Shown here one piece after another: positions 20,430 through 45,484 of a stretch of 64,000 nucleotides of DNA. Origin of the DNA: Dehalococcoidia bacterium. Its GTDB lineage: Bacteria; Chloroflexota; Dehalococcoidia; UBA2979. The stretch is taken from contig OZ253555.1 in assembly GCA_965262725.1 (NCBI GenBank), forward strand, positions 3,264,001 through 3,328,000, written 5' to 3'. Within the stretch, counting starts at the first letter, position 1. The number at the start of each line of letters is the position of its first letter. Below the pieces are notes generated by a model, which did no database searches, was not told the origin of the DNA, and worked only from the letters and a program-made list of their open reading frames with translations. Both the position numbers and the translations under genes were made by a program.

Positions 20430-20502
20430 AGAACCCCCTGGTGCAAACGTCGCACATCCGACCTTGCACCCAGGCGGGCAAGAAGAGACATCGTCCCAAG
20501 TG

Positions 20503-20624
20503 CGCCTACGGGGTTAGCTGACGGGTTCGGCGCTTAGGTCGCCTACCGGCACCGCTCGCGGCTCCGGATTCACCCCAACTTCCTGGGTCCCCCGCCCCCG
20601 TCCCGGCGAGACGAGGTTCGGCAC
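20503..20624 (-). ncRNA. cyclic di-AMP (ydaO/yuaA) riboswitch
   Basis: Minus strand reads GCCGAACC...GGGGGACCCA...TTGGGGTGAATC...GTAGG...CCGAACCCGTCAGCTAACCCCGTAGGC, the hallmark conserved blocks of this class. Located in the 5' UTR of the KamA-like gene. Confidence 0.9.
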
Positions 20625-20746
20625 GTCGCACCGTGCGGCGCCTTCACATTGGAGCAGTCCGCGGGCTCCGCCGTCAAGGCGACTCGCGCCGCTTGGATAC
20701 GGCACGGGCGGTGCGGGCGCGCGACCGGGGCCCCACCGAGCGGCCG

Positions 20747-30588: not shown

Positions 30589-30606
30589 GGCGACAGCCTA
30601 CTGTAT

Positions 30607-32251
30607 CCCTGATCCACCGAAGAAGAGTGCGCGAGCGGCTGGGGTTGGGTGCTCCGCTGTAGCTGGGACAATGGTTTTTGACCGAATCACGTCACAGCCA
30701 CAGGGAGCACCCATTCGATGTTAGCAACGAGCAGCCCCGACCGGATACACATCGCCTTCGACGACGACCGCCTCGTGGACCACGCGGGCCTGCTGCTCCC
30801 GGCCACGCTCGCTGGCCGGCTCGGCCTCCGTGAACTGGCAGACGCCCACCTCGACCTCGGTGACGCAGCGGGGCGGGCGAACGTCGGCGACAAGCTGATG
30901 ACTCTCATCGCCTCGGCGCTCGCGGGCGGCGACTGCATCGATGACGCCGATGCCATGCGCTCAGGCGGCGCCGGGCGCGTGCTCGGCTGCACGGTGAAGG
31001 CGCCGTCCACCCTCGGGACGTTCCTGCGCAGCTTCCGCTGGGGCCACGTCCGCCAGCTCGACCGCATCAGCCGCGAGTTGCTGGCCCGCAGTTGGGCGGC
31101 CGGGGCGGGACCCGGCGCGGCGCCGTTCACGATCGACCTCGACTCGACGCTCTGCGAGACCTACGGACTGGCGAAAGAGGGCGCCCGGCACCACGGCTAC
31201 ACGGGCGTGCGCGGCTATCACCCGCTGCTCGCGGTGGCGGCCGGGACGGGTGAGGTGCTGATGGCCCGGCTGCGCGGGGGCCGTGCCAACACCGCTCGGG
31301 GGGCCGCCCACTTCCTGCGTGAGACGGTGGGCCGGGTGCGCGACGCCGGGGCGAGCGGGCAGCTCACGGTGCGCGCCGACAGCGGCTTCTACAACCACGC
31401 TGTCGTCGCCGTCTGTCGCAAGCAGGATGTCCGCTTCTCCATCACCATTCGCCAGCAGCCGAACGTACGCCGGCTGATCGAGGCGATACCGGAAGAGGAC
31501 TGGACGCCGATCCCGTACTGGCAGGACGACGGCGCCGCTGTCGCCGAGACGACCTACACGCCGTTCCAGCACACGAGGGACGCCACCGCGGTGCGGCTCA
31601 TCGTGCGGCGCGTCAAGCCGACGCCCGGCTCACAGCTCGCGCTCTTCGTGAACTACAGTTACCACGCCTTCATCACCGATCGCGCGGGGGAGATGATGGA
31701 GCTGGAGGCCGACCATCGCCGTCACGCCGAGATCGAGAACGCGATCCGCGACCTCAAGTACGGCGTCGGGTTGAACCATCTCCCCTCGGGCCGCTTCGCC
31801 GCGAACGCGGCGTGGCTCGCGGTGCAGGTGATCGCGCACAACCTCGCCCGCTGGACGGCACGCCTCGGGCTCGGCGAGGGGATCGTGACGACCAGGACGC
31901 TCAGGCGGCGCTACTTCTCTCTCGCCGGACGGCTCACCCACTCTGCCCGGCGGTGGACCCTGCACCTCCCGAAGCGCTGGCCCTGGGCCGGGCAGCTGGC
32001 AGCCGCGCTCGCGCGACTACGGGCGATACCGCTCCCGACCTGACGCCCGCTCACAGCGCCGAACCGGAGCCGAAGCTCGCGCCAGCATGCCCGCGCACGC
32101 CTCGCGCACCCTCAGCGCCCCCGAGCGGCGCTGAGCGACGACTCCTGGCTCCGGCCCGCCCCCGGCGCCGCCCGGCGAACGCCGACACACCCGTCGAACT
32201 CTCCGGCAGCCCGGCACCCCGCCTCGTCAAGCTTCGTTCGGTGGATTCGAG
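30607..32251 (+). mobile_element. IS1380-family insertion sequence, intact copy 1
   Basis: Ends CCCTGATCCACCGAA and TTCGGTGGATTCGAG (imperfect IR). 5-bp TSD TGTAT at 30602-30606 and 32252-32256. Confidence 0.93.
30718..32043 (+). CDS. IS1380-family DDE transposase
   Basis: IDLDST, GYHPL, RADSGF, HAEIEN.I.DLK and PSGRF.ANAAW motifs. Confidence 0.93.
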   Translation: MLATSSPDRIHIAFDDDRLVDHAGLLLPATLAGRLGLRELADAHLDLGDAAGRANVGDKLMTLIASALAGGDCIDDADAMRSGGAGRVLGCTVKAPSTLGTFLRSFRWGHVRQLDRISRELLARSWAAGAGPGAAPFTIDLDSTLCETYGLAKEGARHHGYTGVRGYHPLLAVAAGTGEVLMARLRGGRANTARGAAHFLRETVGRVRDAGASGQLTVRADSGFYNHAVVAVCRKQDVRFSITIRQQPNVRRLIEAIPEEDWTPIPYWQDDGAAVAETTYTPFQHTRDATAVRLIVRRVKPTPGSQLALFVNYSYHAFITDRAGEMMELEADHRRHAEIENAIRDLKYGVGLNHLPSGRFAANAAWLAVQVIAHNLARWTARLGLGEGIVTTRTLRRRYFSLAGRLTHSARRWTLHLPKRWPWAGQLAAALARLRAIPLPT

Positions 32252-32385
32252 TGTATTCAGGTCCCGCGGCGCGTACGAGTCAGGACGGGGCAAGCCGGCG
32301 GGCGCGCTCTCCCTTCGGTCCCGTCGCGGGGACGGTCCCCTGGCGCCGAGCGGGCGCCCGCGCAGACCGTTGCGGGCGCGGCGCT

Positions 32386-37054: not shown

Positions 37055-38683
37055 ATGATCCGCCCAGAGGCCGCCGACTACCAGGGCCACCGCGTGGTGG
37101 GGGCGCGGCTGGCGGAGCCGGTGCTCGACGATGAGATCGGCTTCCACTCCTCCGAGCGCGAGCGCCTGCTGCTTCCCCACTATCACGCGCTCGACCGCGC
37201 GCAGCTCGTCATGCTGGTCGAGCGCGGGCTCGTCACGCGTACTGACGGAGTGAGCATGGCGGCGGGGCTCCGCCGCTTCGTCGAGCCCGGGATCGAGGCG
37301 GGCTACATCTCAGTAGGCGCGGGAATGCACTCTGGCGAGGTCGCCCTCATCGCAGAGCTCGGCGAGGAGGTGGGCGGGCGCCTCGAGATCGGCCGCGCCT
37401 CCGGCGAAGTCGTGCAGGTGGCGTGGCGCCGGATGGAGGCCGCGGCGCTGCGCTCGCTGCTCCATACGCTCGCGGAGGCGCGCGCAGCAATCCTCGAGGT
37501 GGCGGCGGCGCACACCTCGAGCGTGATGCCTGGCTACACGCACAGCCAGCACGCACAGGTCGTGACGCTCGCGCACGTGCTGCTGGCGTGGGAGGCGGGG
37601 CTCGCCCGCTGCTTCGCACGGGGCGCGGAGACGCACGCCCGCGTCAACTGGAGCGCGGCCGGGAGCGGGAACATGAGCGGCAGCGACGCCCCGCTCGATC
37701 GGGCGCGCACGGCCGAGCTGCTCGGATTCGACGGACCGCTCGACAGTACGTACGACGCGATCCAGCACAACGATCACGCGATCGAGTGCCTCGGCCTGCT
37801 CGCCACGCTCGGATCTCTCGTCACGCGCTGGGCGCAGGACCTCTATCTCTACGGCTCGCAGGAGGTCGGTGTCCTTGAGCTACCCGACCGCTTCTGCGGG
37901 ACGAGCGCCCTCATGCCGCAGAAGAAGAACCCCCGCCTGCTGGAGTACCTGCAGGGCGCGTCGGCCTCGGCGCTCGGCGGCCTGGCCACGGCGCTGATGG
38001 TGGAGAAGACACCCTCGGGCGGCGCGATCGTCGAGCGCACCCTCTTCGTCGAGGCGCTCGCTCGGGGCTTTCGCGAGGCGGAACGCAATCTCGGATGGCT
38101 CGCCCTGGCCGTCTCGGAGTCGCAGTGGGACCTGGAGCGGATGCGCTCGCTCGCGCGCACGCACGGGGCGACGTCGAGCACGCTCGCCGCCGCGCTCGCC
38201 CGCGAACGCGGGTGGGCGTGGCGGACCGCGCACGAGGTCGTCGGCACCGCCGTGCGCATCGCGAGCGAGCGCGGCGTCGCGGCCGGCGACCTCACCCCCG
38301 CCCTCCTCGACGAGGCGTCGGAGCTCTACTGCGGGCAGCCGGCGGGGCTGAGCGCCGAGAGCGTCGCGAGCGCCCTCGATCCGCTGGAGGCGGTGAGGCG
38401 CCACGCCCTGCTCGGAGGACCGGCGCCGGAGGAGAGCATCCGGCTGCTCCCGGAGCGCCGCGCCGCGCTGGCCCGCGACCGGGAACGCCTCTCTCAGCTC
38501 ACCGCTCACGCGGAGTCGGCCGCACGGACGCTCGAGGCCACCTTCGATCGGGTCGCGCGGGGGGAGCCGTCCGGCCGCGCGAAGGGGCGCGCGCGCGCCA
38601 CGGGAGTCGCACACCCGGTACCCGCCGGGGCGTCGGACAAGAGCGCCGACGGCCGGCCAACGCCGCGCCCCGACCCCCCTTAA
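37055..38683 (+). CDS. argininosuccinate lyase-like protein (fumarase/ASL superfamily), divergent
   Basis: MPGYTH.QHAQ and signature variant GTSALMPQKKNP. Stop codon TAA lies in the IS1380 TSD. Confidence 0.8.
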   Translation: MIRPEAADYQGHRVVGARLAEPVLDDEIGFHSSERERLLLPHYHALDRAQLVMLVERGLVTRTDGVSMAAGLRRFVEPGIEAGYISVGAGMHSGEVALIAELGEEVGGRLEIGRASGEVVQVAWRRMEAAALRSLLHTLAEARAAILEVAAAHTSSVMPGYTHSQHAQVVTLAHVLLAWEAGLARCFARGAETHARVNWSAAGSGNMSGSDAPLDRARTAELLGFDGPLDSTYDAIQHNDHAIECLGLLATLGSLVTRWAQDLYLYGSQEVGVLELPDRFCGTSALMPQKKNPRLLEYLQGASASALGGLATALMVEKTPSGGAIVERTLFVEALARGFREAERNLGWLALAVSESQWDLERMRSLARTHGATSSTLAAALARERGWAWRTAHEVVGTAVRIASERGVAAGDLTPALLDEASELYCGQPAGLSAESVASALDPLEAVRRHALLGGPAPEESIRLLPERRAALARDRERLSQLTAHAESAARTLEATFDRVARGEPSGRAKGRARATGVAHPVPAGASDKSADGRPTPRPDPP

Positions 38684-38794
38684 CCCTGATCCACCGAAGA
38701 AGAGTGCGCGAGCGGCTGGGGTTGGGTGCTCCGCTGTAGCTGGGACAATGGTTTTTGACCGAATCACGTCACAGCCACAGGGAGCACCCATTCG

Positions 38795-40120
38795 ATGTTA
38801 GCAACGAGCAGCCCCGACCGGATACACATCGCCTTCGACGACGACCGCCTCGTGGACCACGCGGGCCTGCTGCTCCCGGCCACGCTCGCTGGCCGGCTCG
38901 GCCTCCGTGAACTGGCAGACGCCCACCTCGACCTCGGTGACGCAGCGGGGCGGGCGAACGTCGGCGACAAGCTGATGACTCTCATCGCCTCGGCGCTCGC
39001 GGGCGGCGACTGCATCGATGACGCCGATGCCATGCGCTCAGGCGGCGCCGGGCGCGTGCTCGGCTGCACGGTGAAGGCGCCGTCCACCCTCGGGACGTTC
39101 CTGCGCAGCTTCCGCTGGGGCCACGTCCGCCAGCTCGACCGCGTCAGCCGCGAGTTGCTGGCCCGCAGTTGGGCGGCCGGGGCGGGACCCGGCGCGGCAC
39201 CGTTCACGATCGACCTCGACTCGACGCTCTGCGAGACCTACGGACTGGCGAAAGAGGGCGCCCGGCACCACGGCTACACGGGCGTGCGCGGCTATCACCC
39301 GCTGCTCGCGGTGGCGGCCGGGACGGGTGAGGTGCTGATGGCCCGGCTGCGCGGGGGCCGTGCCAACACCGCTCGGGGGGCCGCCCACTTCCTGCGTGAG
39401 ACGGTGGGCCGGGTGCGCGACGCCGGGGCGAGCGGGCAGCTCACGGTGCGCGCCGACAGCGGCTTCTACAACCACGCTGTCGTCGCCGTCTGTCGCAAGC
39501 AGGATGTCCGCTTCTCCATCACCATTCGGCAGCAGCCGAACGTACGCCGGCTGATCGAGGCGATACCGGAAGAGGACTGGACGCCGATCCCGTACTGGCA
39601 GGACGACGGCGCCGCTGTCGCCGAGACGACCTACACGCCGTTCCAGCACACGAGGGACGCCACCGCGGTGCGGCTCATCGTGCGGCGCGTCAAGCCGACG
39701 CCCGGCTCACAGCTCGCGCTCTTCGTGAACTACAGTTACCACGCCTTCATCACCGATCGCGCGGGGGAGATGATGGAGCTGGAGGCCGACCATCGCCGTC
39801 ACGCCGAGATCGAGAACGCGATCCGCGACCTCAAGTACGGCGTCGGGTTGAACCATCTCCCCTCGGGCCGCTTCGCCGCGAACGCGGCGTGGCTCGCGGT
39901 GCAGGTGATCGCGCACAACCTCGCCCGCTGGACGGCACGCCTCGGGCTCGGCGAGGGGATCGTGACGACCAGGACGCTCAGGCGGCGCTACTTCTCTCTC
40001 GCCGGACGGCTCACCCACTCTGCCCGGCGGTGGACCCTGCACCTCCCGAAGCGCTGGCCCTGGGCCGGGCAGCTGGCAGCCGCGCTCGCGCGACTACGGG
40101 CGATACCGCTCCCGACCTGA
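38795..40120 (+). CDS. IS1380-family DDE transposase (near-identical to copy 1)
   Basis: 441 aa; an I/V difference (LDRIS versus LDRVS) is seen relative to copy 1. Confidence 0.93.
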   Translation: MLATSSPDRIHIAFDDDRLVDHAGLLLPATLAGRLGLRELADAHLDLGDAAGRANVGDKLMTLIASALAGGDCIDDADAMRSGGAGRVLGCTVKAPSTLGTFLRSFRWGHVRQLDRVSRELLARSWAAGAGPGAAPFTIDLDSTLCETYGLAKEGARHHGYTGVRGYHPLLAVAAGTGEVLMARLRGGRANTARGAAHFLRETVGRVRDAGASGQLTVRADSGFYNHAVVAVCRKQDVRFSITIRQQPNVRRLIEAIPEEDWTPIPYWQDDGAAVAETTYTPFQHTRDATAVRLIVRRVKPTPGSQLALFVNYSYHAFITDRAGEMMELEADHRRHAEIENAIRDLKYGVGLNHLPSGRFAANAAWLAVQVIAHNLARWTARLGLGEGIVTTRTLRRRYFSLAGRLTHSARRWTLHLPKRWPWAGQLAAALARLRAIPLPT

Positions 40121-40404
40121 CGCCCGCTCACAGCGCCGAACCGGAGCCGAAGCTCGCGCCAGCATGCCCGCCCACGCCTCGCGCACCCTCGCGCCCGCAC
40201 CCTCAGCGCCCCCGAGCGGTGCTGAGCGACGGCTCCTGGCTCCGGCCCGCCCCCGGCGCCGCCCGGCGAACGCCGACACACCCGTCGAACTCTCCGGCAG
40301 CCCGGCACCCCGCCTCGTCAAGCTTCGTTCGGTTCGCGGTAGGGATGCCGGTTGCCCGGCACCCCCCGCACAGATCCGGACGTGCCCTCTCGGGCATCCG
40401 GCTC

Positions 40405-41733
40405 CTACCTCAAGTGCGTGACGGCAAATCGCTCCGCAGGCCACGGGTGAAGGATGGAGATTCGGGGCCAGTGTCCCTGGCACAGGGCAAGGATGCGCTC
40501 CCACGTGAAACGGTCGCGCTGCGACCGCCGTCGGAGAACGCGCAGCCAGAGCCGCTTCACGAAACGGACAAACCGCGTGAGCGCCGGCGAGCTGGTCGGC
40601 ACCGCGTAGTAGCCAAGCCACCCACGCAGTACCCGCCCCAGCCACTGCCCCGTCGTCACGGGGTTGTCGTGCATGCGCCGCCACAACTCGGCCTTGATGA
40701 CCTTCAGCGTCCGGCGCATCCGCTTCGCAACGGGCTTGCGCCCCAGCCCGAATCTCCCGTCGCGTCGGGTCCGGCAGTAGTGCGTCATGCCGAGAAAGTC
40801 GAACGTTTCCGGTCGGCCCTCCCCGCGCTTCCGCCTGTTCGCCAGCGCGAACCTGCCGAACTCAAGTAGACGGGTCTTCTCCGGGTGCAGCTCCAGCCCG
40901 TAGGCCGCGAACCGCTCCCGGAGTGCCTCCATGAACCGCACCGCATCGCTGCGGTGCTGGAACCCCAGGACGAAGTCATCGGCATACCGCACGATGTACG
41001 CCTCGCCCCGGACCTCCCGCGGTCGCCACTCGCGCGCAAACCAGTCGTCGAGCACGTTGTGCAGGTACACGTTCGCAAGCAGCGGCGATATCGGCGCCCC
41101 CTGCGGCATCCCCCGCACGAAATCGACTTCCGGCTCCGCGTCCATGACGCCGACGCTCAGCCACTTTCGTATCAGGCGCAACACCCGCTGGTCCCCGATG
41201 CGCATCTCCAGAAACGACATCAGCCGCCCCCGGTCGATGCTGCCGAAGAACTCCCGGATGTCCACCTCGACAATCCAGCTGACCTTGCGCCGTTCGACCG
41301 CGTAGGCCAGTGCGTCCAGCGCGTCATGCGCCGAACGCCCCGGCCTGAAGCCATGCGAGAAGCCGTAGTAGCCCGACTCGTAAATCGGGTTCAAAAGATT
41401 GTCCACCACCGCCCGCTGAACGATCTTGTCCTCCAGCGAGACGATACCGAGCGGCCGTATTCCCCCGTCCGGCTTGGGTATCTCTACCCGCCTGACGGGC
41501 TTCGCCCGGTACGCTCCACGGTGTACGCGGCCATGCAGGTCGAGCAATCGCTCGTCCAGCCCGTCCCCGTATTCTCGCCACCTCACCCCGTCCACGCCCG
41601 GAGCCGCATCCCGCTTCAACGCGAGATACGCCTCCCGCAGCGCCTCCGGCGTGATGTGGTGCAAGAGCGCGGTGAGTTTCTCTCCCGGCTTCCGTTCCAC
41701 GAACTGCCGTATCCTCTCCGCTCCGGGTGACAC
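40405..41733 (-). CDS. ltrA: group II intron reverse transcriptase/maturase, no endonuclease domain
   Basis: APGVDG, IPKPDGG.RPLGI, GFRPGRSAHDA, PQGA.ISPLLAN.YLH, RYADD and FDFLG motifs. Confidence 0.95.
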   Translation of the reverse strand: MSPGAERIRQFVERKPGEKLTALLHHITPEALREAYLALKRDAAPGVDGVRWREYGDGLDERLLDLHGRVHRGAYRAKPVRRVEIPKPDGGIRPLGIVSLEDKIVQRAVVDNLLNPIYESGYYGFSHGFRPGRSAHDALDALAYAVERRKVSWIVEVDIREFFGSIDRGRLMSFLEMRIGDQRVLRLIRKWLSVGVMDAEPEVDFVRGMPQGAPISPLLANVYLHNVLDDWFAREWRPREVRGEAYIVRYADDFVLGFQHRSDAVRFMEALRERFAAYGLELHPEKTRLLEFGRFALANRRKRGEGRPETFDFLGMTHYCRTRRDGRFGLGRKPVAKRMRRTLKVIKAELWRRMHDNPVTTGQWLGRVLRGWLGYYAVPTSSPALTRFVRFVKRLWLRVLRRRSQRDRFTWERILALCQGHWPRISILHPWPAERFAVTHLR

Positions 41734-41844
41734 CGCACCCCGACTCTGCGTCCGGACCGTGCCGGTGCTTTGAGGATTCCTCTCGGTTGGGGCCCTTTGC
41801 TCCAGCGACTCCGCCGGGGCTCGCGCCCCCTTCTATGAGGGTCG

Positions 41845-42178
41845 TCTGATCCGCAAGGCCGACGTGGCGGCCTTCTGCACCGTTCTACCGATCGCGCCTC
41901 CCGTCCGCAGCCCTGTGGTGGTTGTCGGTGCCGATGCGAGTGGTGCCGCCGTCTTGTCCCCGGGACGTTGTGGTGACCGTGCTTCTATTCGCACTCGTCG
42001 AGGGGCCGCTCCGGGCCCGGTGCATGATGATCAGCCTGTCTCCAGGGTGTGGGCGCTGCCATCTTGTTCCCGTCCTCGTTGGGACCAGGGGGTTCCGCAG
42101 TCGCCCGCGTGTCGGCATCTCTCGTATCCTCCGAAGCCCACCGGCCGCCCGGTCGCCTCGCTCCTCGCGTGCTGTCTG
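41845..42178 (-). ncRNA. candidate bridge/seekRNA region of the IS1111-type element
   Basis: Carries CCCCCT-hairpin-GAACAAG matching the target site and TCATC-hairpin-ATAGAAG matching the circle junction. Exact RNA ends unknown. Confidence 0.7.
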
Positions 42179-43270
42179 CTACGCCGCCTCGGCCGCGCGC
42201 GCGTGGCGCAACGGCTCGTAGACCTCCCCGCTCTTCCAGAGCGCAAGCATCAGCACCGCCAGTCGCCTCGCGACCGCGACGACGGCACGCTTCTTCGCAT
42301 TGCCGGCCCCCGACTCCGCGTAACGCAGCCCCCACCTGCGGAGGTCGCTGTCGGGGCCGAAGGGGCCCAGGATGTAGTGCGCGGCCTGGTTCAGCACCCG
42401 GCGCAGCGCCACGTCCCCTTCCTTCGTGATCCGCAGCTGGGGCTGCCGATCACCGGAATCGCGGCTCCGGGGCACCAGCCCCAGGTAGGGCCCCACCTCC
42501 CTGTTCTTGGGGAAGCGGGCCGGGTCCTCGATGGTGAGGATGAAGGTGAGCGAGGTGATCGGGCCGACGCCCACGATCTGCCGCAGCGCGCCGGTCTCCG
42601 CGTAGCGCTCGCACATCGCGGCGAGCTTCTTGTCGGCCTGGCGGATCTCCCCGGTCAGCTGCTCGATCTGGTGGAGCACCGGCAGCAGCGCCGGGCCCAG
42701 CTCCTCGGGGATGTGCTCTCTGACCGCGCGGTGGAAGGCCGGCGCCGTGCAGCCCGGAAGCGCCGCGCCCCACGCCTTCACCGCGCCCCGGACGTGGTTG
42801 ATGAACATCGTGCGCGCCCGGACCAGCGCCTCGCGGCTGCGGAGCACCTGGAGGTCCGCCTGCGCCATGGCGCTTCGGTGCCGGATGGGGAAGAGGAGCG
42901 CCGGGTCGAATCGGCCGAGCCGTGCGAGGTGCTCGGCATCGGAGCGGTCGGTCTTGCGCTGGCTGCGCGCGATCAGCCTGACCTGCCTCGGGTTGGCGAC
43001 GATCACGTCGTGACCGAGCTCCGCGAACATCCGGCTCAGCCACGGGGAACGCGGCCCCACCTCCATCACCACCCGGGCGCCCTGCAGTGGGGTGAGCGCC
43101 CGCGTGAGCGCCGCGGTCGTGGTGCGGACTCGCTCCTCCCGCACGATCTCCCCGTCGCCACCGAGGACGCAGAGGTGGCTGTAGCGGTCGCTGACGTCGA
43201 TGCCGACAGTCACGAGCTCCGCATCCCCCACCTTCCTGCTCTCTGTGACATCTGATGTACGCTGTGCCAC
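42179..43270 (-). CDS. IS110-family DEDD recombinase/transposase
   Basis: VGIDVS, VVME, KTDRSDA, GVGPIT, YLGLVP...DSG and KRAVVAVARRL motifs. GTG start with AGGAG RBS (alternative start 43231). Confidence 0.93.
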   Translation of the reverse strand: MAQRTSDVTESRKVGDAELVTVGIDVSDRYSHLCVLGGDGEIVREERVRTTTAALTRALTPLQGARVVMEVGPRSPWLSRMFAELGHDVIVANPRQVRLIARSQRKTDRSDAEHLARLGRFDPALLFPIRHRSAMAQADLQVLRSREALVRARTMFINHVRGAVKAWGAALPGCTAPAFHRAVREHIPEELGPALLPVLHQIEQLTGEIRQADKKLAAMCERYAETGALRQIVGVGPITSLTFILTIEDPARFPKNREVGPYLGLVPRSRDSGDRQPQLRITKEGDVALRRVLNQAAHYILGPFGPDSDLRRWGLRYAESGAGNAKKRAVVAVARRLAVLMLALWKSGEVYEPLRHARAAEAA

Positions 43271-43849
43271 GGTCGGTCTCCTACCTCTCTCGGCTCGCCT
43301 GAGCCGTTCTCCTGGGCCACCACGTGAGCCCGTGCTTGGAGGGGAAGTATCCCCTCTGAGGAGGGGACCGACCCTCATGTCATCTTGTTCGCCGCCTTCA
43401 TCGCTCGTACGGCCCCATCAGACTGCTGCGCATCGTTCATCATCGGCTACGGTTTACGTCCCTTCCCGACGCGGTCCCGGCGTACGACTCGTCGGGACAA
43501 CGCGCAGCTCTCCCAAGTCCCGGCGATAGACGTGTGTGCGTGCATGGGGTCTTCGACACCGTGGGGCCCGACCACGACTCGCCAGTAGCGCCGTCGCCGG
43601 TATTGCCTTCGACCAATCCAAGAGCCTCGGCACCCCAAATGGCCCTTTCGATGCTCATTAGCCCCGCCCGCACACCCCGCTGCCGACGCTTCACAAGCCG
43701 CCTCGCGACGACCCGCGCACGGCTCGCGGAATGACATGAGTGGCTAGCTCTTTGCCATAGAGGACTTCCACCTCCTGCCTACTCGCCAGTTAGCCTGGCG
43801 CTCTGGATTCGAGCTTAAGGGCGGGGACGCCCGATGCTAGACTGCGGTC

Positions 43850-44341
43850 ATGCAACCCCTCGCCGGCATCATCATGGGCTCCTCCTCCGACTGGGAGACG
43901 ATGCGCCTCACCGCCGACGTGCTCGAGGAGCTCGGCGTGCCGCACGAGGTACGCGTGATCTCCGCGCACCGGACGCCGGACCTCCTCTTCGAGTACGCGT
44001 CCACCGCCCGGGAGCGTGGGCTCCAGGTGATCGTGGCCGGCGCCGGGGGCGCGGCGCACCTGCCGGGAATGACCGCCGCCAAGACGGCCCTGCCCGTGAT
44101 CGGCGTGCCGGTCGAGTCGAAGGCGCTGAGCGGACTCGACTCGCTGCTCTCGATCGTCCAGATGCCGGCAGGCGTACCGGTGGCGACGGTGGCGATCGGC
44201 GCGGCCGGGGCCCGCAACGCCGGCCTGCTCGCCGCAGCGATCCTCGCCCCGGGCCGCCCCGCCATCGCCGAGGCGCTCGATAGCTACCGCACGCGTCAGA
44301 CCGACGGCGTCCTCGCGCAGCCGGATCCCCGCCAGGGCTGA
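43850..44341 (+). CDS. purE: N5-CAIR mutase
   Basis: [21 protein letters not shown] and SIVQMP.GVPVATV motifs. Confidence 0.97.
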
Positions 44342-44344
44342 GGC

Positions 44345-45484
44345 GTGCGGATCGGCGTAGTCGGGGCCGGCCAGCTCGGGCGCATGCTCGTGCTGGCCGG
44401 TCGGCCGCTCGGCATCGACTTCCTGATGTACGACCCGGCGCCCGACGCCTCGGGCGGGCGCGTCGCGCCGCTCGTCGTCGGGGACTTCGACGACCGGCGC
44501 GCGCTCGAGCGCTTCGCCTCAGAGGCGGACGTGGTGACCTTCGACTGGGAGAACGTCCCCGCCAACGCCCTGAGAACCCTCCGCGGCCGCGCCGCCGTGC
44601 GGCCGCCGGCGCGTGCGCTCGCGCTCTCGCAGGACAGGCTCGCCGAGAAACGGATCTTCCGGCGGCTCGGCATCGCCACGGCGCCGTTCGCGGCCGTGAA
44701 CTCGCTTCAGGGGCTGCGGCGCGCCGTTGGCCGCGTCGGCCTGCCGGGCGTGCTGAAGACGCGACGGCTCGGCTACGACGGGAAGGGCCAGGCGTGGCTG
44801 AAGCACCCCCGCGACATCGGGACGGCCTACGAGGTCCTGGGCGGGCGGCCGCTCATCTACGAGGCGCGCGTCCCCTTCACGCGCGAGCTCTCGCTGCTCT
44901 CGGTGCGGGGTGCCGACGGCGCGATCGCCCACTACCCGCTCGCCGAGAACCGCCACGAGCGGGGGATCCTCAGGCTCACCACCGCCCCCTACGTCGACCG
45001 CGCGCTGCAGGCGGAGGCGGAGGCGTACCTGGAGTCGCTGCTCCGGCGCCTGCGCTACGTCGGCGTGCTGGGCGTCGAGTTCTTCGAGGCGGAGGGGCGT
45101 CTCGTCGCGAACGAGACGGCCGCGCGCGTGCACAACTCCGGCCACTGGACGATCGAGGGCTCGGTGACGAGCCAGTTCGAGAACCACATCCGGGCCCTCG
45201 CGGGGCTGCCCCTCGGACGCACCGACGCGCGGGGCTACGCAGCGATGGTCAACTTCATCGGCCGCCTCCCCGACGCCGCGGAGGTGCTCGCGGTGCCGGG
45301 TGCCCACTTCCACGACTACGAGAAAACCCCGCGCCCCGGCCGCAAGGTCGGCCACGCCACCCTCGTCTCGCGGAGCGCCCGCGAGCGCGACCGCGCGGCC
45401 AGACGCCTGCTCGAGCTGGGACGGCGCGCGGCCGGTGAGGAGCTGCCCCCCGCCGGGCGCGGCGGGAGGCCCCGGCGTCAGTAG
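44345..45484 (+). CDS. purK: N5-CAIR synthetase
   Basis: GAGQLGRM, GYDGKGQ, HNSGHWT, SQFENH and RKVGH motifs. Confidence 0.96.
   Translation: MRIGVVGAGQLGRMLVLAGRPLGIDFLMYDPAPDASGGRVAPLVVGDFDDRRALERFASEADVVTFDWENVPANALRTLRGRAAVRPPARALALSQDRLAEKRIFRRLGIATAPFAAVNSLQGLRRAVGRVGLPGVLKTRRLGYDGKGQAWLKHPRDIGTAYEVLGGRPLIYEARVPFTRELSLLSVRGADGAIAHYPLAENRHERGILRLTTAPYVDRALQAEAEAYLESLLRRLRYVGVLGVEFFEAEGRLVANETAARVHNSGHWTIEGSVTSQFENHIRALAGLPLGRTDARGYAAMVNFIGRLPDAAEVLAVPGAHFHDYEKTPRPGRKVGHATLVSRSARERDRAARRLLELGRRAAGEELPPAGRGGRPRRQ

What the first reader, a model, noticed from the sequence alone, without database searches (positions are those of the whole stretch)
40321..43818. Group II intron whose EBS1 matches the IS1380 terminal inverted repeat; an empty homing site lies 8 kb away
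Seen: the 5' exon ends ...CTCG-AATCCA (IBS1). Domain I contains TGGATT (minus strand, 43620-43615) just before the GAAGGCAA motif, where EBS1 is expected, giving a 6/6 match. The same unoccupied site exists in copy 1 (junction 32241/32242), and the left IRs offer GATCCA (one G-U wobble). The intron is antisense to the transposase and its protein lacks an endonuclease domain. Established: introns often insert in IS coding regions. Inference: targeting the terminal IR gives a multicopy site that also immobilises the IS, which is less usual.
Basis: partly seen in the sequence, partly recalled or inferred. Interest (0 to 1): 0.75.

Follow-up and report, generated by a model that had tools for sequence, protein, structure and literature searches.

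The report
Intron that homes into IS1380 ends
A mobile group II intron in this actinobacterial genome has copied itself at least 14 times into the tips of IS1380-type jumping genes by RNA-DNA base pairing, a strategy already shown experimentally for one rhizobial intron, and the copy in this window has itself been split by a third mobile element.

Summary
An endonuclease-less group II intron lies on the minus strand at 43803-40333, ten bases inside the right inverted repeat (IR) of an IS1380-family element. TGGATT (43620-43615) sits in the terminal loop of the Id3 hairpin and pairs 6/6 with the last six exon bases. The genome holds 14 near-identical intron 5' junctions. All 14 follow the same 10-nt IR tip, at left and right ends alike, always reading inward.

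Three amendments:
- **EBS2 reaches outside the IS.** GGGC (43645-42) pairs with IR bases 1-3 plus one flanking G. Thirteen of 14 occupied ends have that G, against 14 of 27 empty ends. The "empty site" at 32241/32242 lacks it and is only near-cognate.
- **The 3.47 kb is composite.** It is a 1917-nt intron plus a 1554-nt IS110-family element that splits the intron's protein gene, so this copy is probably non-autonomous.
- **IR targeting is published.** RmInt2 in ISRm17 (PMC4615759) uses it, so this is a new member of a known kind, in a new IS family and phylum.

Immobilisation of the IS remains untested. The newest lead is apparent reciprocal targeting between the IS110 element and this intron clade.

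The parts
40333..43803 (-). Whole insertion in the IS1380 right IR: group II intron (1917 nt when intact) carrying a nested IS110-family element. Starts GAGCG, ends ...CCUACCGCGAA.
   Evidence: Copy 1 versus copy 2 alignment. Seven intact 1917-nt copies and three 3471-nt copies elsewhere in the genome.
43384..43803 (-). Intron nt 1-420: domains I-III, the start of domain IV, and the first ~20 codons of the IEP (ATG at 43443).
   Evidence: RF02005 hit 43768-43547, 170 bits. 100%/99.8% identity to intact copies over nt 1-420. The N-terminal ~55 residues are conserved in Klebsiella and Sinorhizobium homologues.
43615..43620 (-). EBS1, UGGAUU, in the 8-nt terminal loop of the Id3 hairpin.
   Evidence: Covaries with the exon in sister lineages.
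43642..43646 (-). EBS2, (A)GGGC, in the internal loop just after CGAAA.
   Evidence: Positional homology to GAUGC<->GCAUC in the C-type subfamily and AGGGC<->GCCCU in the IS110-end lineage.
43804..43809 (-). IBS1, AAUCCA (exon -6..-1), IR positions 5-10.
43811..43814 (-). IBS2, GCUC (exon -11..-8): IR positions 1-3 plus the first flanking base (G at 43814).
   Evidence: 13 of 14 occupied versus 14 of 27 empty IS ends have G at -11.
41830..43383 (-). Nested IS110-family element (1554 nt including one copy of AAG). Longest ORF 43378-42179; the likely start is GTG at 43213.
   Evidence: Pfam DEDD_Tnp_IS110 + Transposase_20. NF033542, 216.6 bits. Junctions. Contig joint 41829->43384 in runs X1, X6, X7.
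40405..41733 (-). Body of the intron-encoded reverse transcriptase/maturase (442 aa from an internal GTG), with YADD present and no endonuclease domain. Cut off from its native start by the IS110.
   Evidence: TIGR04416, 326 bits, cut-off 300. RVT_1 and weak GIIM only.
40333..40404 (-). Domain V (40404-40373) and domain VI, with the candidate bulged branch A at 40340. The last intron base is 40333.
   Evidence: RF00029, 39.9 bits (gathering 40), E 1.1e-6. Read from the sequence.
38684..40332 (+). IS1380-family copy 2, from the left IR to the intron insertion point (transposase ORF 38795-40120).
   Evidence: NF033539, 338 bits, cut-off 180. Alignment with copy 1.
43804..43813 (+). Displaced 10-bp tip of the right IR of copy 2 (TGGATTCGAG).
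   Evidence: Contigs of runs X5, X6 and X7 match the flank only from 43814 onward.
43814..43818 (.). Target-site duplication CTTAA of copy 2 (partner at 38679-38683).
30607..32251 (+). IS1380-family copy 1, uninterrupted (transposase 30718-32043; duplication TGTAT at 30602-30606 and 32252-32256). Near-cognate empty intron site at 32241/32242.

Best explanation
A 1917-nt group II intron of the IIB type, whose protein has reverse-transcriptase and maturase domains but no DNA endonuclease, retrohomes into the terminal inverted repeats of IS1380-family insertion sequences.

The spliced intron RNA recognises a short DNA site:
- EBS1 (UGGAUU) pairs with IR positions 5-10 (AAUCCA in the right IR; GAUCCA with a G-U wobble in the left IR).
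- EBS2 ((A)GGGC) pairs with IR positions 1-3 plus one G of the flanking target duplication.

The intron reverse-splices ten bases inside the IR, always reading from the flank into the IS. It is therefore sense to the transposase at left ends and antisense at right ends.

Lacking an endonuclease, it most likely uses the lagging-strand template and nascent DNA at replication forks for priming, as shown for RmInt1 and RmInt2. This step is inferred here.

Because the two IRs are inverted, each IS offers one site on each strand. Which end is taken appears to depend on the flanking G and on orientation to replication.

The window copy was later hit by an IS110-family element at intron nt 420, inside the IEP's N-terminal codons. 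It probably cannot make full-length IEP and would depend on the intact copies.

Shown here: site, pairings, copy number, covariation. Inferred: replication-fork priming, current activity, and the effect on IS transposition.
For: 1. **Anatomy.** RF02005 domain I hit of 170 bits. D5/D6 hit at the 3' end. TIGR04416 RT/maturase, 326 bits. Exact excision footprint against the uninterrupted IS copy.
2. **Copies.** Of 21 intron-5' BLAST matches in the genome, 14 are >=97.9% identical. All 14 follow C[C/T]C[T/G][G/A]ATCCA. Of 12 paired copies, 7 are intact at 1917 nt and 99.7-100% identical to the reference copy. The host IS right-end regions differ by up to ~10%, so the intron spread after the IS copies diverged.
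3. **Both ends, several IS subtypes.** 3' exons are CCGAAGAAGAG (left IR) or CCGAACGAAGC (right IR), plus an 82%-identical IS subtype.
4. **Structure.** 95.4% of 604 cells paired. Id3 helices 100% paired with G-U/A-U/G-C exchanges.
5. **Covariation of EBS with exon.**
   - C-type: CCCAUU/AAUGGG and GAUGC/GCAUC.
   - A 74%-identical lineage in G078/G079: GUGGAU/AUCCAC, the same IR one base further in.
   - L018: CACCAC/GUGGUG.
   - 5 of 6 IS110-end loci: UGGUAU/AUGCCA.
6. **Flank G at -11.** Occupied 13 G/1 non-G versus empty 14/13, Fisher p=0.014. Type-1 ends only (classified by hand) 12/0 versus 12/11, p=0.0055.
7. **Orientation.** Occupied sites are co-oriented with the locally G-rich strand in 12 of 14. 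Base-pair-matched empty IS ends are co-oriented in 5 of 14 (+-50 kb, p=0.018).
8. **Orthologous pair.** The same flank carries an empty left IR in G078 (L187) and an intron-occupied one in G079 (L047).
9. **Precedent.** RmInt2/ISRm17 (PMC4615759).
Against: - **No experimental or read-level evidence** of splicing or mobility. Only assembled contigs were available.
- **Unusual boundaries.** GAGCG...AA instead of the usual GUGYG...AY (consensus recalled). RF00029 scores 39.9, just under its gathering score of 40.
- **The orientation signal is weak.** It depends on window size: 10 of 14 versus 5 of 14 at +-100 kb, p=0.13. Local skew values in the 1.7-2.6 Mb plateau are near zero.
- **Many matched ends stay empty.** Fourteen IS ends with a G at -11 are empty in this genome. 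Most left IRs of related IS copies listed in G077 and G078 are empty as well.
- **Rearranged copies elsewhere.** In G004 and G077 the closest relatives have the IR-tip 5' exon but non-IS 3' exons. No IS1380 transposase was found in the 7.5-kb stretches fetched around them (L045, L046). I read these as recombinant or rearranged copies; L045 is a 95%/89% hybrid. That reading is inference.
- **One odd fragment.** One orphan 3' intron end (genome 3381100) is followed by CAGCCG..., not an IR.
- **EBS3 was not identified.**
Confidence: 0.85

Rival explanations
1. The intron entered one IS1380 copy once and was then multiplied passively, carried along when the IS transposed.
For: Intron copy number (14) is close to IS copy number (17 full-length transposase matches). 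Every near-identical copy is at an IS tip.
Against: - The intron is found in left IRs, in right IRs and in an 82%-identical IS subtype. A single carried insertion would stay in one end of one lineage.
- Intron copies are 99.7-100% identical to the reference copy, while their host IS right-end regions are 90-95% identical.
- Occupied ends have G at -11 in 13 of 14, against 14 of 27 empty ends. Passive carriage would show the IS's own flank distribution.
- An IR split by 1.9 kb is unlikely to be a transposase substrate (inference).
Confidence: 0.05
2. The intron spreads among IS copies by homologous recombination or gene conversion between IS copies, not by RNA-guided retrohoming.
For: Recombination among these repeats clearly occurs. 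There is a hybrid intron in L045 (95%/89% halves). One occupied end carries a type-1 IR tip joined to a type-2 interior (3361518/3359602). The GC-skew plateau lies where the repeats cluster.
Against: - Conversion needs homology on both sides. Outside the intron only 10 bp of IR are shared, and the flanks are unique.
- It cannot move an intron from a left IR to a right IR in inverted orientation.
- It does not explain the flank-G preference or the EBS/IBS covariation in sister lineages.
Confidence: 0.05
3. Site choice is made mainly by the intron protein or by a DNA structure at IS ends. The EBS1 match would be necessary but not the main determinant.
For: None of the 8 non-IS sites matching G-C-Y-C-N-R-ATCCA|C is occupied, against 13 of 27 IS ends with that rule (p=0.015). 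A at -12 is invariant in all 14 occupied sites. For RmInt1 and RmInt2, distal exon positions are read by the IEP (PMC4615759).
Against: Only 2 of the 8 non-IS sites also match +2/+3, so a slightly longer pairing or IEP-read site explains the result. This view complements the base-pairing model and does not replace it.
Confidence: 0.3

Closest known systems
RmInt2 of Sinorhizobium meliloti GR4 (ORF class D, IIB3) in the inverted repeats of ISRm17
   Same: - IEP without an endonuclease domain.
- All genomic copies sit inside the left or right IR of one IS type, giving two sites per IS on opposite strands.
- Short, tolerant EBS2/IBS2 pairing (four pairs suffice).
- About seven near-identical copies, suggesting recent spread (PMC4615759, passages; PMC5894124).
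- The window's IEP is 50% identical to a Sinorhizobium medicae plasmid intron lying among IS66 genes. Both ribozymes match RF02005.
   Different: - The host IS is IS1380 family here. ISRm17 is ISNCY family (PMC10194956).
- Actinobacterial host, not alphaproteobacterial.
- Here the site is 10 bp from the tip and IBS2 reaches one base into the flank. I could not see where RmInt2 sits within the IR, because that is in Fig. S1/S2 and supplements are closed.
- The 5' end is GAGCG.
- Mobility and lagging-strand bias were shown by assay for RmInt2 and are only inferred here.
RmInt1 in ISRm2011-2, and E.c.I4 in IS3-like transposase genes
   Same: Bacterial group II introns whose natural homing site is a multicopy insertion sequence. 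Occupancy is partial, as here (PMC3522654, passages; PMC4615759).
   Different: Those sites lie in the IS interior or transposase ORF and have one orientation. They are not in the terminal repeats.
Class C (IIC) introns behind terminators and attC sites
   Same: They use a repeated, non-essential genomic motif as a safe multicopy site (PMC7306698, PMC3522654, passages).
   Different: IIC introns lack EBS2 and read a DNA stem-loop. This intron has EBS2 and matches a IIB-type domain I model.

Membership tests
Group II intron (mobile, ORF-containing) | Domain I with exon-binding sites complementary to the 5' exon | tested here: met
   RF02005, 170 bits. EBS1 6/6 and EBS2 4/4 (one G-U) with the exon. 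Covariation in sister lineages.
Group II intron (mobile, ORF-containing) | Domain V with the AGC triad, and domain VI with a bulged A near the 3' end | tested here: met
   RF00029 aligned at 40406-40332, E 1.1e-6, but 39.9 bits against a gathering score of 40. GAGCCGG...CCGGAUC and a bulged A at 40340 read.
Group II intron (mobile, ORF-containing) | Consensus boundaries GUGYG...AY (consensus recalled) | tested here: not met
   GAGCG...AA in all 12 paired copies. Sister subfamilies C and D have GUGCG, and D also ends in AA. This is a variant, not a disqualifier, given 14 near-identical copies.
Group II intron (mobile, ORF-containing) | RT/maturase ORF in domain IV | tested here: met
   TIGR04416, 326 bits > 300. 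In the window copy the ORF is split by IS110 after about codon 20.
IR-targeting, endonuclease-less introns of the RmInt2 kind | IEP lacks the En domain | tested here: met
   No HNH/En hit at E<=5. About 30 residues follow the X domain.
IR-targeting, endonuclease-less introns of the RmInt2 kind | Copies lie in both terminal IRs of an IS | tested here: met
   14 of 14 5' junctions are at the IR tip. Both left-IR and right-IR 3' exons are seen.
IR-targeting, endonuclease-less introns of the RmInt2 kind | Bias to the lagging-strand template | tested here: inconclusive
   12 of 14 occupied versus 5 of 14 matched empty sites are co-oriented with the G-rich strand at +-50 kb (p=0.018). At +-100 kb the counts are 10 versus 5 (p=0.13). 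No replication assay was done.
IR-targeting, endonuclease-less introns of the RmInt2 kind | ORF class D by IEP phylogeny | not tested
   Indirect only: 50% identity to a S. medicae intron among IS66 genes, and a shared RF02005 ribozyme model. No tree with classified references was built.
IS1380 family | Transposase matching the family model; terminal IRs; short target duplication | tested here: met
   NF033539, 338 bits, cut-off 180. 16-bp IRs with 12 matches, and 5-bp duplications TGTAT and CTTAA.
IS110 family | DEDD transposase; site-specific insertion without long IRs | tested here: met
   NF033542, 216.6 bits. 4 of 4 complete copies lie at the homologous CGGCGAACAAG|GGGGCG site. No bridge or guide RNA was identified.

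The most novel reading that the evidence does not exclude
This is a three-tier, partly reciprocal parasitism among selfish elements.

- The intron clade specialises on the extreme tips of insertion sequences together with a base or more of their flank. Those flank bases are semi-constant because of the IS's own target preference.
- An IS110-family, presumably RNA-guided, element specialises on a conserved stretch of the intron's protein gene, the codons for ...AANKG..., at intron nt 420.
- A sister intron lineage in related genera in turn homes to the left-end tip of that same IS110 family.

The elements would then limit one another's spread.
Probability: 0.45. Interest if true: 0.65.

Novelty: new member of a known kind. 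Interest (0 to 1): 0.45.

Why it matters
This is a second, independent natural case of a group II intron using IS terminal repeats as its homing site, after RmInt2/ISRm17. It involves a different IS family and a different phylum, which suggests the strategy is general for endonuclease-less introns.

The genome is also a natural experiment, with 14 occupied and 27 empty ends that differ in flank and orientation. From these one can read target rules: a site that straddles the IS-flank junction, and a possible replication-strand effect.

If splitting the IR disables transposition, the intron would dampen IS1380 activity in this genome.

The nested IS110 and the sister introns at IS110 tips make interactions among three classes of mobile element directly testable.

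Tried and rejected
- **MFE fold of domain I.** z = -0.81, with 42 of 200 shuffles as good. It is uninformative for this GC-rich RNA and was replaced by the covariance-model alignment and pair counts.
- **GGGCUAA as EBS2.** I first took GGGCUAA (about 43665-43659), which could pair with UUAGCCC, for EBS2. I rejected it because GCUA(U/A) is conserved in subfamilies with unrelated exons and in the Rfam consensus. It may be a tetraloop-receptor-like motif (recalled, untested).
- **Low-frequency insertion at 32241/32242.** This could not be tested. All runs found are held as assembled contigs, which drop rare variants. IS-interior sequence is also multicopy, so loose ends at 40333 only reflect other IS copies.
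- **Exact 16-mer scan of genome contigs.** All 119 of 119 listed matches lack intron sequence downstream and are chance hits.
- **Class-level BLAST survey.** 4 of 401 genomes matched, all in the window's own family. This is 'not found in those searched', not absence.
- **Intron ORF class.** Not obtained. The papers read did not give the class of the Klebsiella relative, and no reference tree was built.
- **EBS3/IBS3.** Looked for by eye and not assigned.
- **IS110 guide-like 7-mers.** Four shared 7-mers were found between the target and the element's non-coding ends. My own estimate is about two by chance (no call), so this is not evidence.
- **B-type introns.** Loops CUCCAUUU and the like, with exons ending YUGG, show only 3-bp EBS1 matches. 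They were left unexplained.
- **Promoter/terminator scan of 43300-44400.** Nothing found.
- **The search of earlier findings.** Closed.
- **Literature.** Searches for the intron with IS1380, terminal IRs, Actinobacteria or IS110 found no report of this system. Only the RmInt2 precedent turned up.
- **Supplements.** Those of PMC4615759 (Fig. S1/S2, exact RmInt2 sites) and PMC7306698 were not visible and may bear on novelty.

Full report
**What is in the window.** The region holds two copies of a 1.65-kb IS1380-family element. Its transposase scores 338 bits on NF033539 (cut-off 180) and matches Pfam DDE_Tnp_1_4.
- Copy 1 (30607-32251) is uninterrupted and flanked by the duplication TGTAT.
- Copy 2 starts at 38684 and is flanked by CTTAA (38679-38683 and 43814-43818).

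Aligning the copies shows copy 2 is identical in layout up to ...TTCGGT at 40332/40333. It resumes with GGATTCGAG at 43804-43813. The 3471 nt between these points are an insertion ten bases inside the right inverted repeat (IR). Contigs from three other public runs match the right flank only from 43814 onward, which independently fixes the IS end.

**The insertion is a group II intron plus a nested IS.** Read on the minus strand:
- It begins GAGCG at 43803.
- It matches the Rfam domain-I model RF02005 at 43768-43547 (170 bits, gathering 49).
- It carries an RT/maturase ORF at 41733-40405 (TIGR04416, 326 bits, cut-off 300).
- It ends with domains V and VI at 40404-40333 (RF00029, E 1.1e-6, 39.9 bits against a gathering score of 40).

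Comparison with other genomic copies shows the intact intron is 1917 nt. The window copy carries an extra 1554 nt at intron nt 420 (window 41830-43383). This extra segment encodes an IS110-family transposase (NF033542, 216.6 bits). Contigs joining 41829 to 43384 exist in three runs, which fits the intact intron copies elsewhere.

The intron's reading frame is open from nt 358 in intact copies. The ~55 residues upstream of the internal GTG are conserved in the Klebsiella and Sinorhizobium homologues (40-41% identity over 121 aligned residues). The native start is therefore the ATG at intron nt 361 (window 43443), and the IS110 splits the gene after about 20 codons. The window copy is probably not autonomous.

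TGGATT is at 43620-43615. The covariance-model alignment puts it in the terminal loop CUUGGAUU of the hairpin that precedes GAAGGCAA. I projected that structure onto an alignment of 20 related introns (19 distinct rows) from this and eight other genomes.
- 95.4% of 604 cells are standard pairs, against 28-48% when partners are slid by 1-3 columns.
- 7 pairs show changes on both sides.
- The two helices of this hairpin are 100% paired, with G-U/A-U/G-C exchanges.

The loop is complementary 6/6 to the last six exon bases, AAUCCA. A single-sequence MFE fold was not informative.

**Genome-wide test.** The window lies in a 3.67-Mb single-contig genome. BLAST finds 21 intron-5' matches, of which 14 are at least 97.9% identical. 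It finds 15 intron-3' matches, of which 13 are at least 98.3% identical.
- All 14 5' junctions read C[C/T]C[T/G][G/A]ATCCA|GAGCG.
- 12 of the 13 3' junctions continue CCG... These are CCGAAGAAGAG (left IR interior), CCGAACGAAGC (right IR interior), or the ends of an 82%-identical IS1380 subtype.
- One 3' junction, CCGATCGACGCC, has no transposase next to it.
- One orphan 3' fragment is followed by CAGCCG.

The intron thus occupies both left and right IRs and always reads inward.

Of 12 copies whose two ends I could pair, 7 are 1917 nt, 3 are 3471 nt, and 2 carry other insertions near nt 860-885. These copies are 99.7-100% identical to the reference copy. The IS right-end regions are only 90-95% identical to one another. 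This points to recent, independent insertions, not passive carriage.

**EBS2 and the flank.** A sister subfamily (81% identical, three copies) sits antisense at about base 104 of the same IS. Its Id3 loop reads CCCAUU against the exon AAUGGG. The internal loop after CGAAA reads GAUGC against the exon GCAUC at -12..-8. By position, the window intron's EBS2 is (A)GGGC (43646-43642), pairing with GCCC or GCUC at -11..-8. That is IR bases 1-3 plus the first flanking base.

The flank matters:
- 13 of 14 occupied ends have G at -11, against 14 of 27 empty IS ends (Fisher p=0.014).
- For the main IS type alone (my hand classification), the counts are 12 of 12 against 12 of 23 (p=0.0055).

The IS's own target preference (duplications such as CTTAA, CTTAT, CTAAG) supplies that G at one or both ends. 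Copy 1 in the window has ...ATACA|CTCG and ...TGTAT|CCCTG. The site at 32241/32242 therefore matches IBS1 and the 3' exon but has only three of four IBS2 pairs, which makes it near-cognate.

None of the 8 non-IS genomic sites fitting the 12-base rule is occupied, against 13 of 27 IS ends (p=0.015). Only 2 of those 8 also match +2/+3, so a slightly longer site may explain this.

**Replication orientation.** Cumulative GC skew has its minimum near 0.4 Mb and a plateau at 1.7-2.6 Mb. The table counts sites co-oriented with the locally G-rich strand, comparing occupied sites with matched empty IS ends.

| Window | Occupied | Matched empty | Fisher p |
|---|---|---|---|
| +-25 kb | 11 of 14 | 4 of 14 | 0.021 |
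| +-50 kb | 12 of 14 | 5 of 14 | 0.018 |
| +-100 kb | 10 of 14 | 5 of 14 | 0.13 |

This fits insertion into the lagging-strand template, as established for RmInt1 and RmInt2, but it is only suggestive.

**Other genomes.** In 99 genomes of the same family (G000 included), 10 have DNA matches. In a 401-genome sample of the class, 4 have matches, all in that family.
- Relatives at 93% identity in two other genera (L010, L011) have the same EBS1 and the 5' exons TTAG-CCCGAATCCA and TAAG-CCCTGATCCA. A truncated copy (L031) has the same kind of junction.
- The 3' sides of L010/L045 and L011/L046 are not IS1380. One intron is a 95%/89% hybrid, and the other is followed by an IS110-family gene. I read these as recombined copies.
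- A 74%-identical lineage (L025, L036/L047) has EBS1 GUGGAU and sits after IR base 11 (exon AUCCAC), with GGGU opposite GCCC. Its flank in G079 matches the flank of an empty left IR in G078 (L187), giving an occupied/empty pair for one locus.
- Most left IRs of the related IS copies listed in G077 and G078 are empty.

**The IS110 layer (side finding).** All 4 complete copies of the IS110 element in this genome lie at the homologous intron site CGGCGAACAAG|GGGGCG. Three are in the main intron and one is in a diverged intron. The same arrangement occurs in G079 in the 74% lineage.

Conversely, six loci in G078, G079 and G081 have a related intron whose nt 1 abuts the left end of a related IS110. 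The 5' exon is ...CTCATGCCA, antisense to the IS110 tip. In 5 of the 6 the Id3 loop reads UGGUAU, complementary to AUGCCA with one G-U. Behind that intron, the IS110's outer flank resembles the IS110 target in the window intron. This suggests reciprocal targeting, but I did not identify the IS110 guide RNA.

**Comparison with what is known.** Group II introns often reside in mobile elements (PMC7306698, passages). Examples include sites in transposase genes of IS3-like elements (PMC3522654).

IR targeting itself is published. All seven RmInt2 copies in S. meliloti GR4 lie in the IRs of ISRm17, giving two sites on opposite replication strands. Retrohoming and bias to the lagging-strand template were shown by plasmid assay (PMC4615759, passages; PMC5894124). 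ISRm17 is ISNCY family (PMC10194956).

The window's IEP is 50% identical to a S. medicae plasmid intron among IS66 genes, and both ribozymes match RF02005. A class D-like affiliation is therefore likely but was not tested by phylogeny.

My searches found no report of this intron or of IS1380 IRs as a target. Supplements that could show RmInt2's exact position in the IR were closed.

**Verdict.**
- the target straddles the IS-flank junction;
- the nearby empty site is near-cognate;
- the window copy is broken by a nested IS110;
- there is a published precedent.

This is a new member of a known kind, with an interesting and only partly explored interaction with IS110 elements.

Noticed in passing
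window 41830-43383 (-): An IS110-family element is nested in the intron at nt 420, splitting the IEP gene after about 20 codons. All 4 complete copies in the genome are at the homologous intron site (3 in the main intron, 1 in a diverged one). The same arrangement occurs in G079 (L047).
   Followed up: partly
L013, L015, L021, L028, L034, L017 (G079, G081, G078); L043:4112/4113, L044:3761/3762: A sister intron lineage starts exactly at the left-end tip of a related IS110 element, in divergent orientation. In 5 of the 6 loci the EBS1 loop UGGUAU is complementary to the tip (AUGCCA). This suggests reciprocal targeting between IS110 and this intron clade.
   Followed up: partly
window 30710-30725 and 38787-38802 (site read on the minus strand): Both IS copies hold an unoccupied near-cognate site for a second intron subfamily (81% identical, EBS1 CCCAUU). 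That subfamily occupies this position in three other IS copies whose exon has GCAUC where the window copies have ACAUC.
   Followed up: partly
window 43799-43803 and 40333-40334 (-): The intron boundaries are GAGCG...AA instead of the usual GUGYG...AY (consensus recalled). They are present in all 12 paired copies, so they are presumably functional.
   Followed up: no
window 20488-20633 (-): A c-di-AMP riboswitch (ydaO type), RF00379, 81.4 bits against a gathering score of 38.
   Followed up: no
window about 40183-40196: A 14-nt insertion (a local duplication of CGCACCCTCGCGCC-like sequence) in the non-coding right part of IS copy 2 relative to copy 1. Most other genomic copies share the longer form (314 against 300 aligned bases).
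   Followed up: no
genome G000 1.7-2.6 Mb; L045 (G004): The cumulative GC skew is flat where IS1380, intron and IS110 copies cluster. Hybrid introns and mismatched 5'/3' exons point to recombination among intron copies reshaping the chromosome.
   Followed up: partly
window 43814-44300: In contigs of runs X6 and X7 the flank continues leftward past 43814 with unrelated sequence (858 and 2854 further bases). This locus therefore seems to lack the IS in related organisms.
   Followed up: no
G000 1682715; L012, L014, L016, L020, L022, L027, L033: A 'B-type' subfamily (about 82% identical, 5' exon ending YUGG) shows only about 3 bp of EBS1 complementarity. Several of its exons share GGGAATGACAAC, so its target rule is unexplained.
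   Followed up: no
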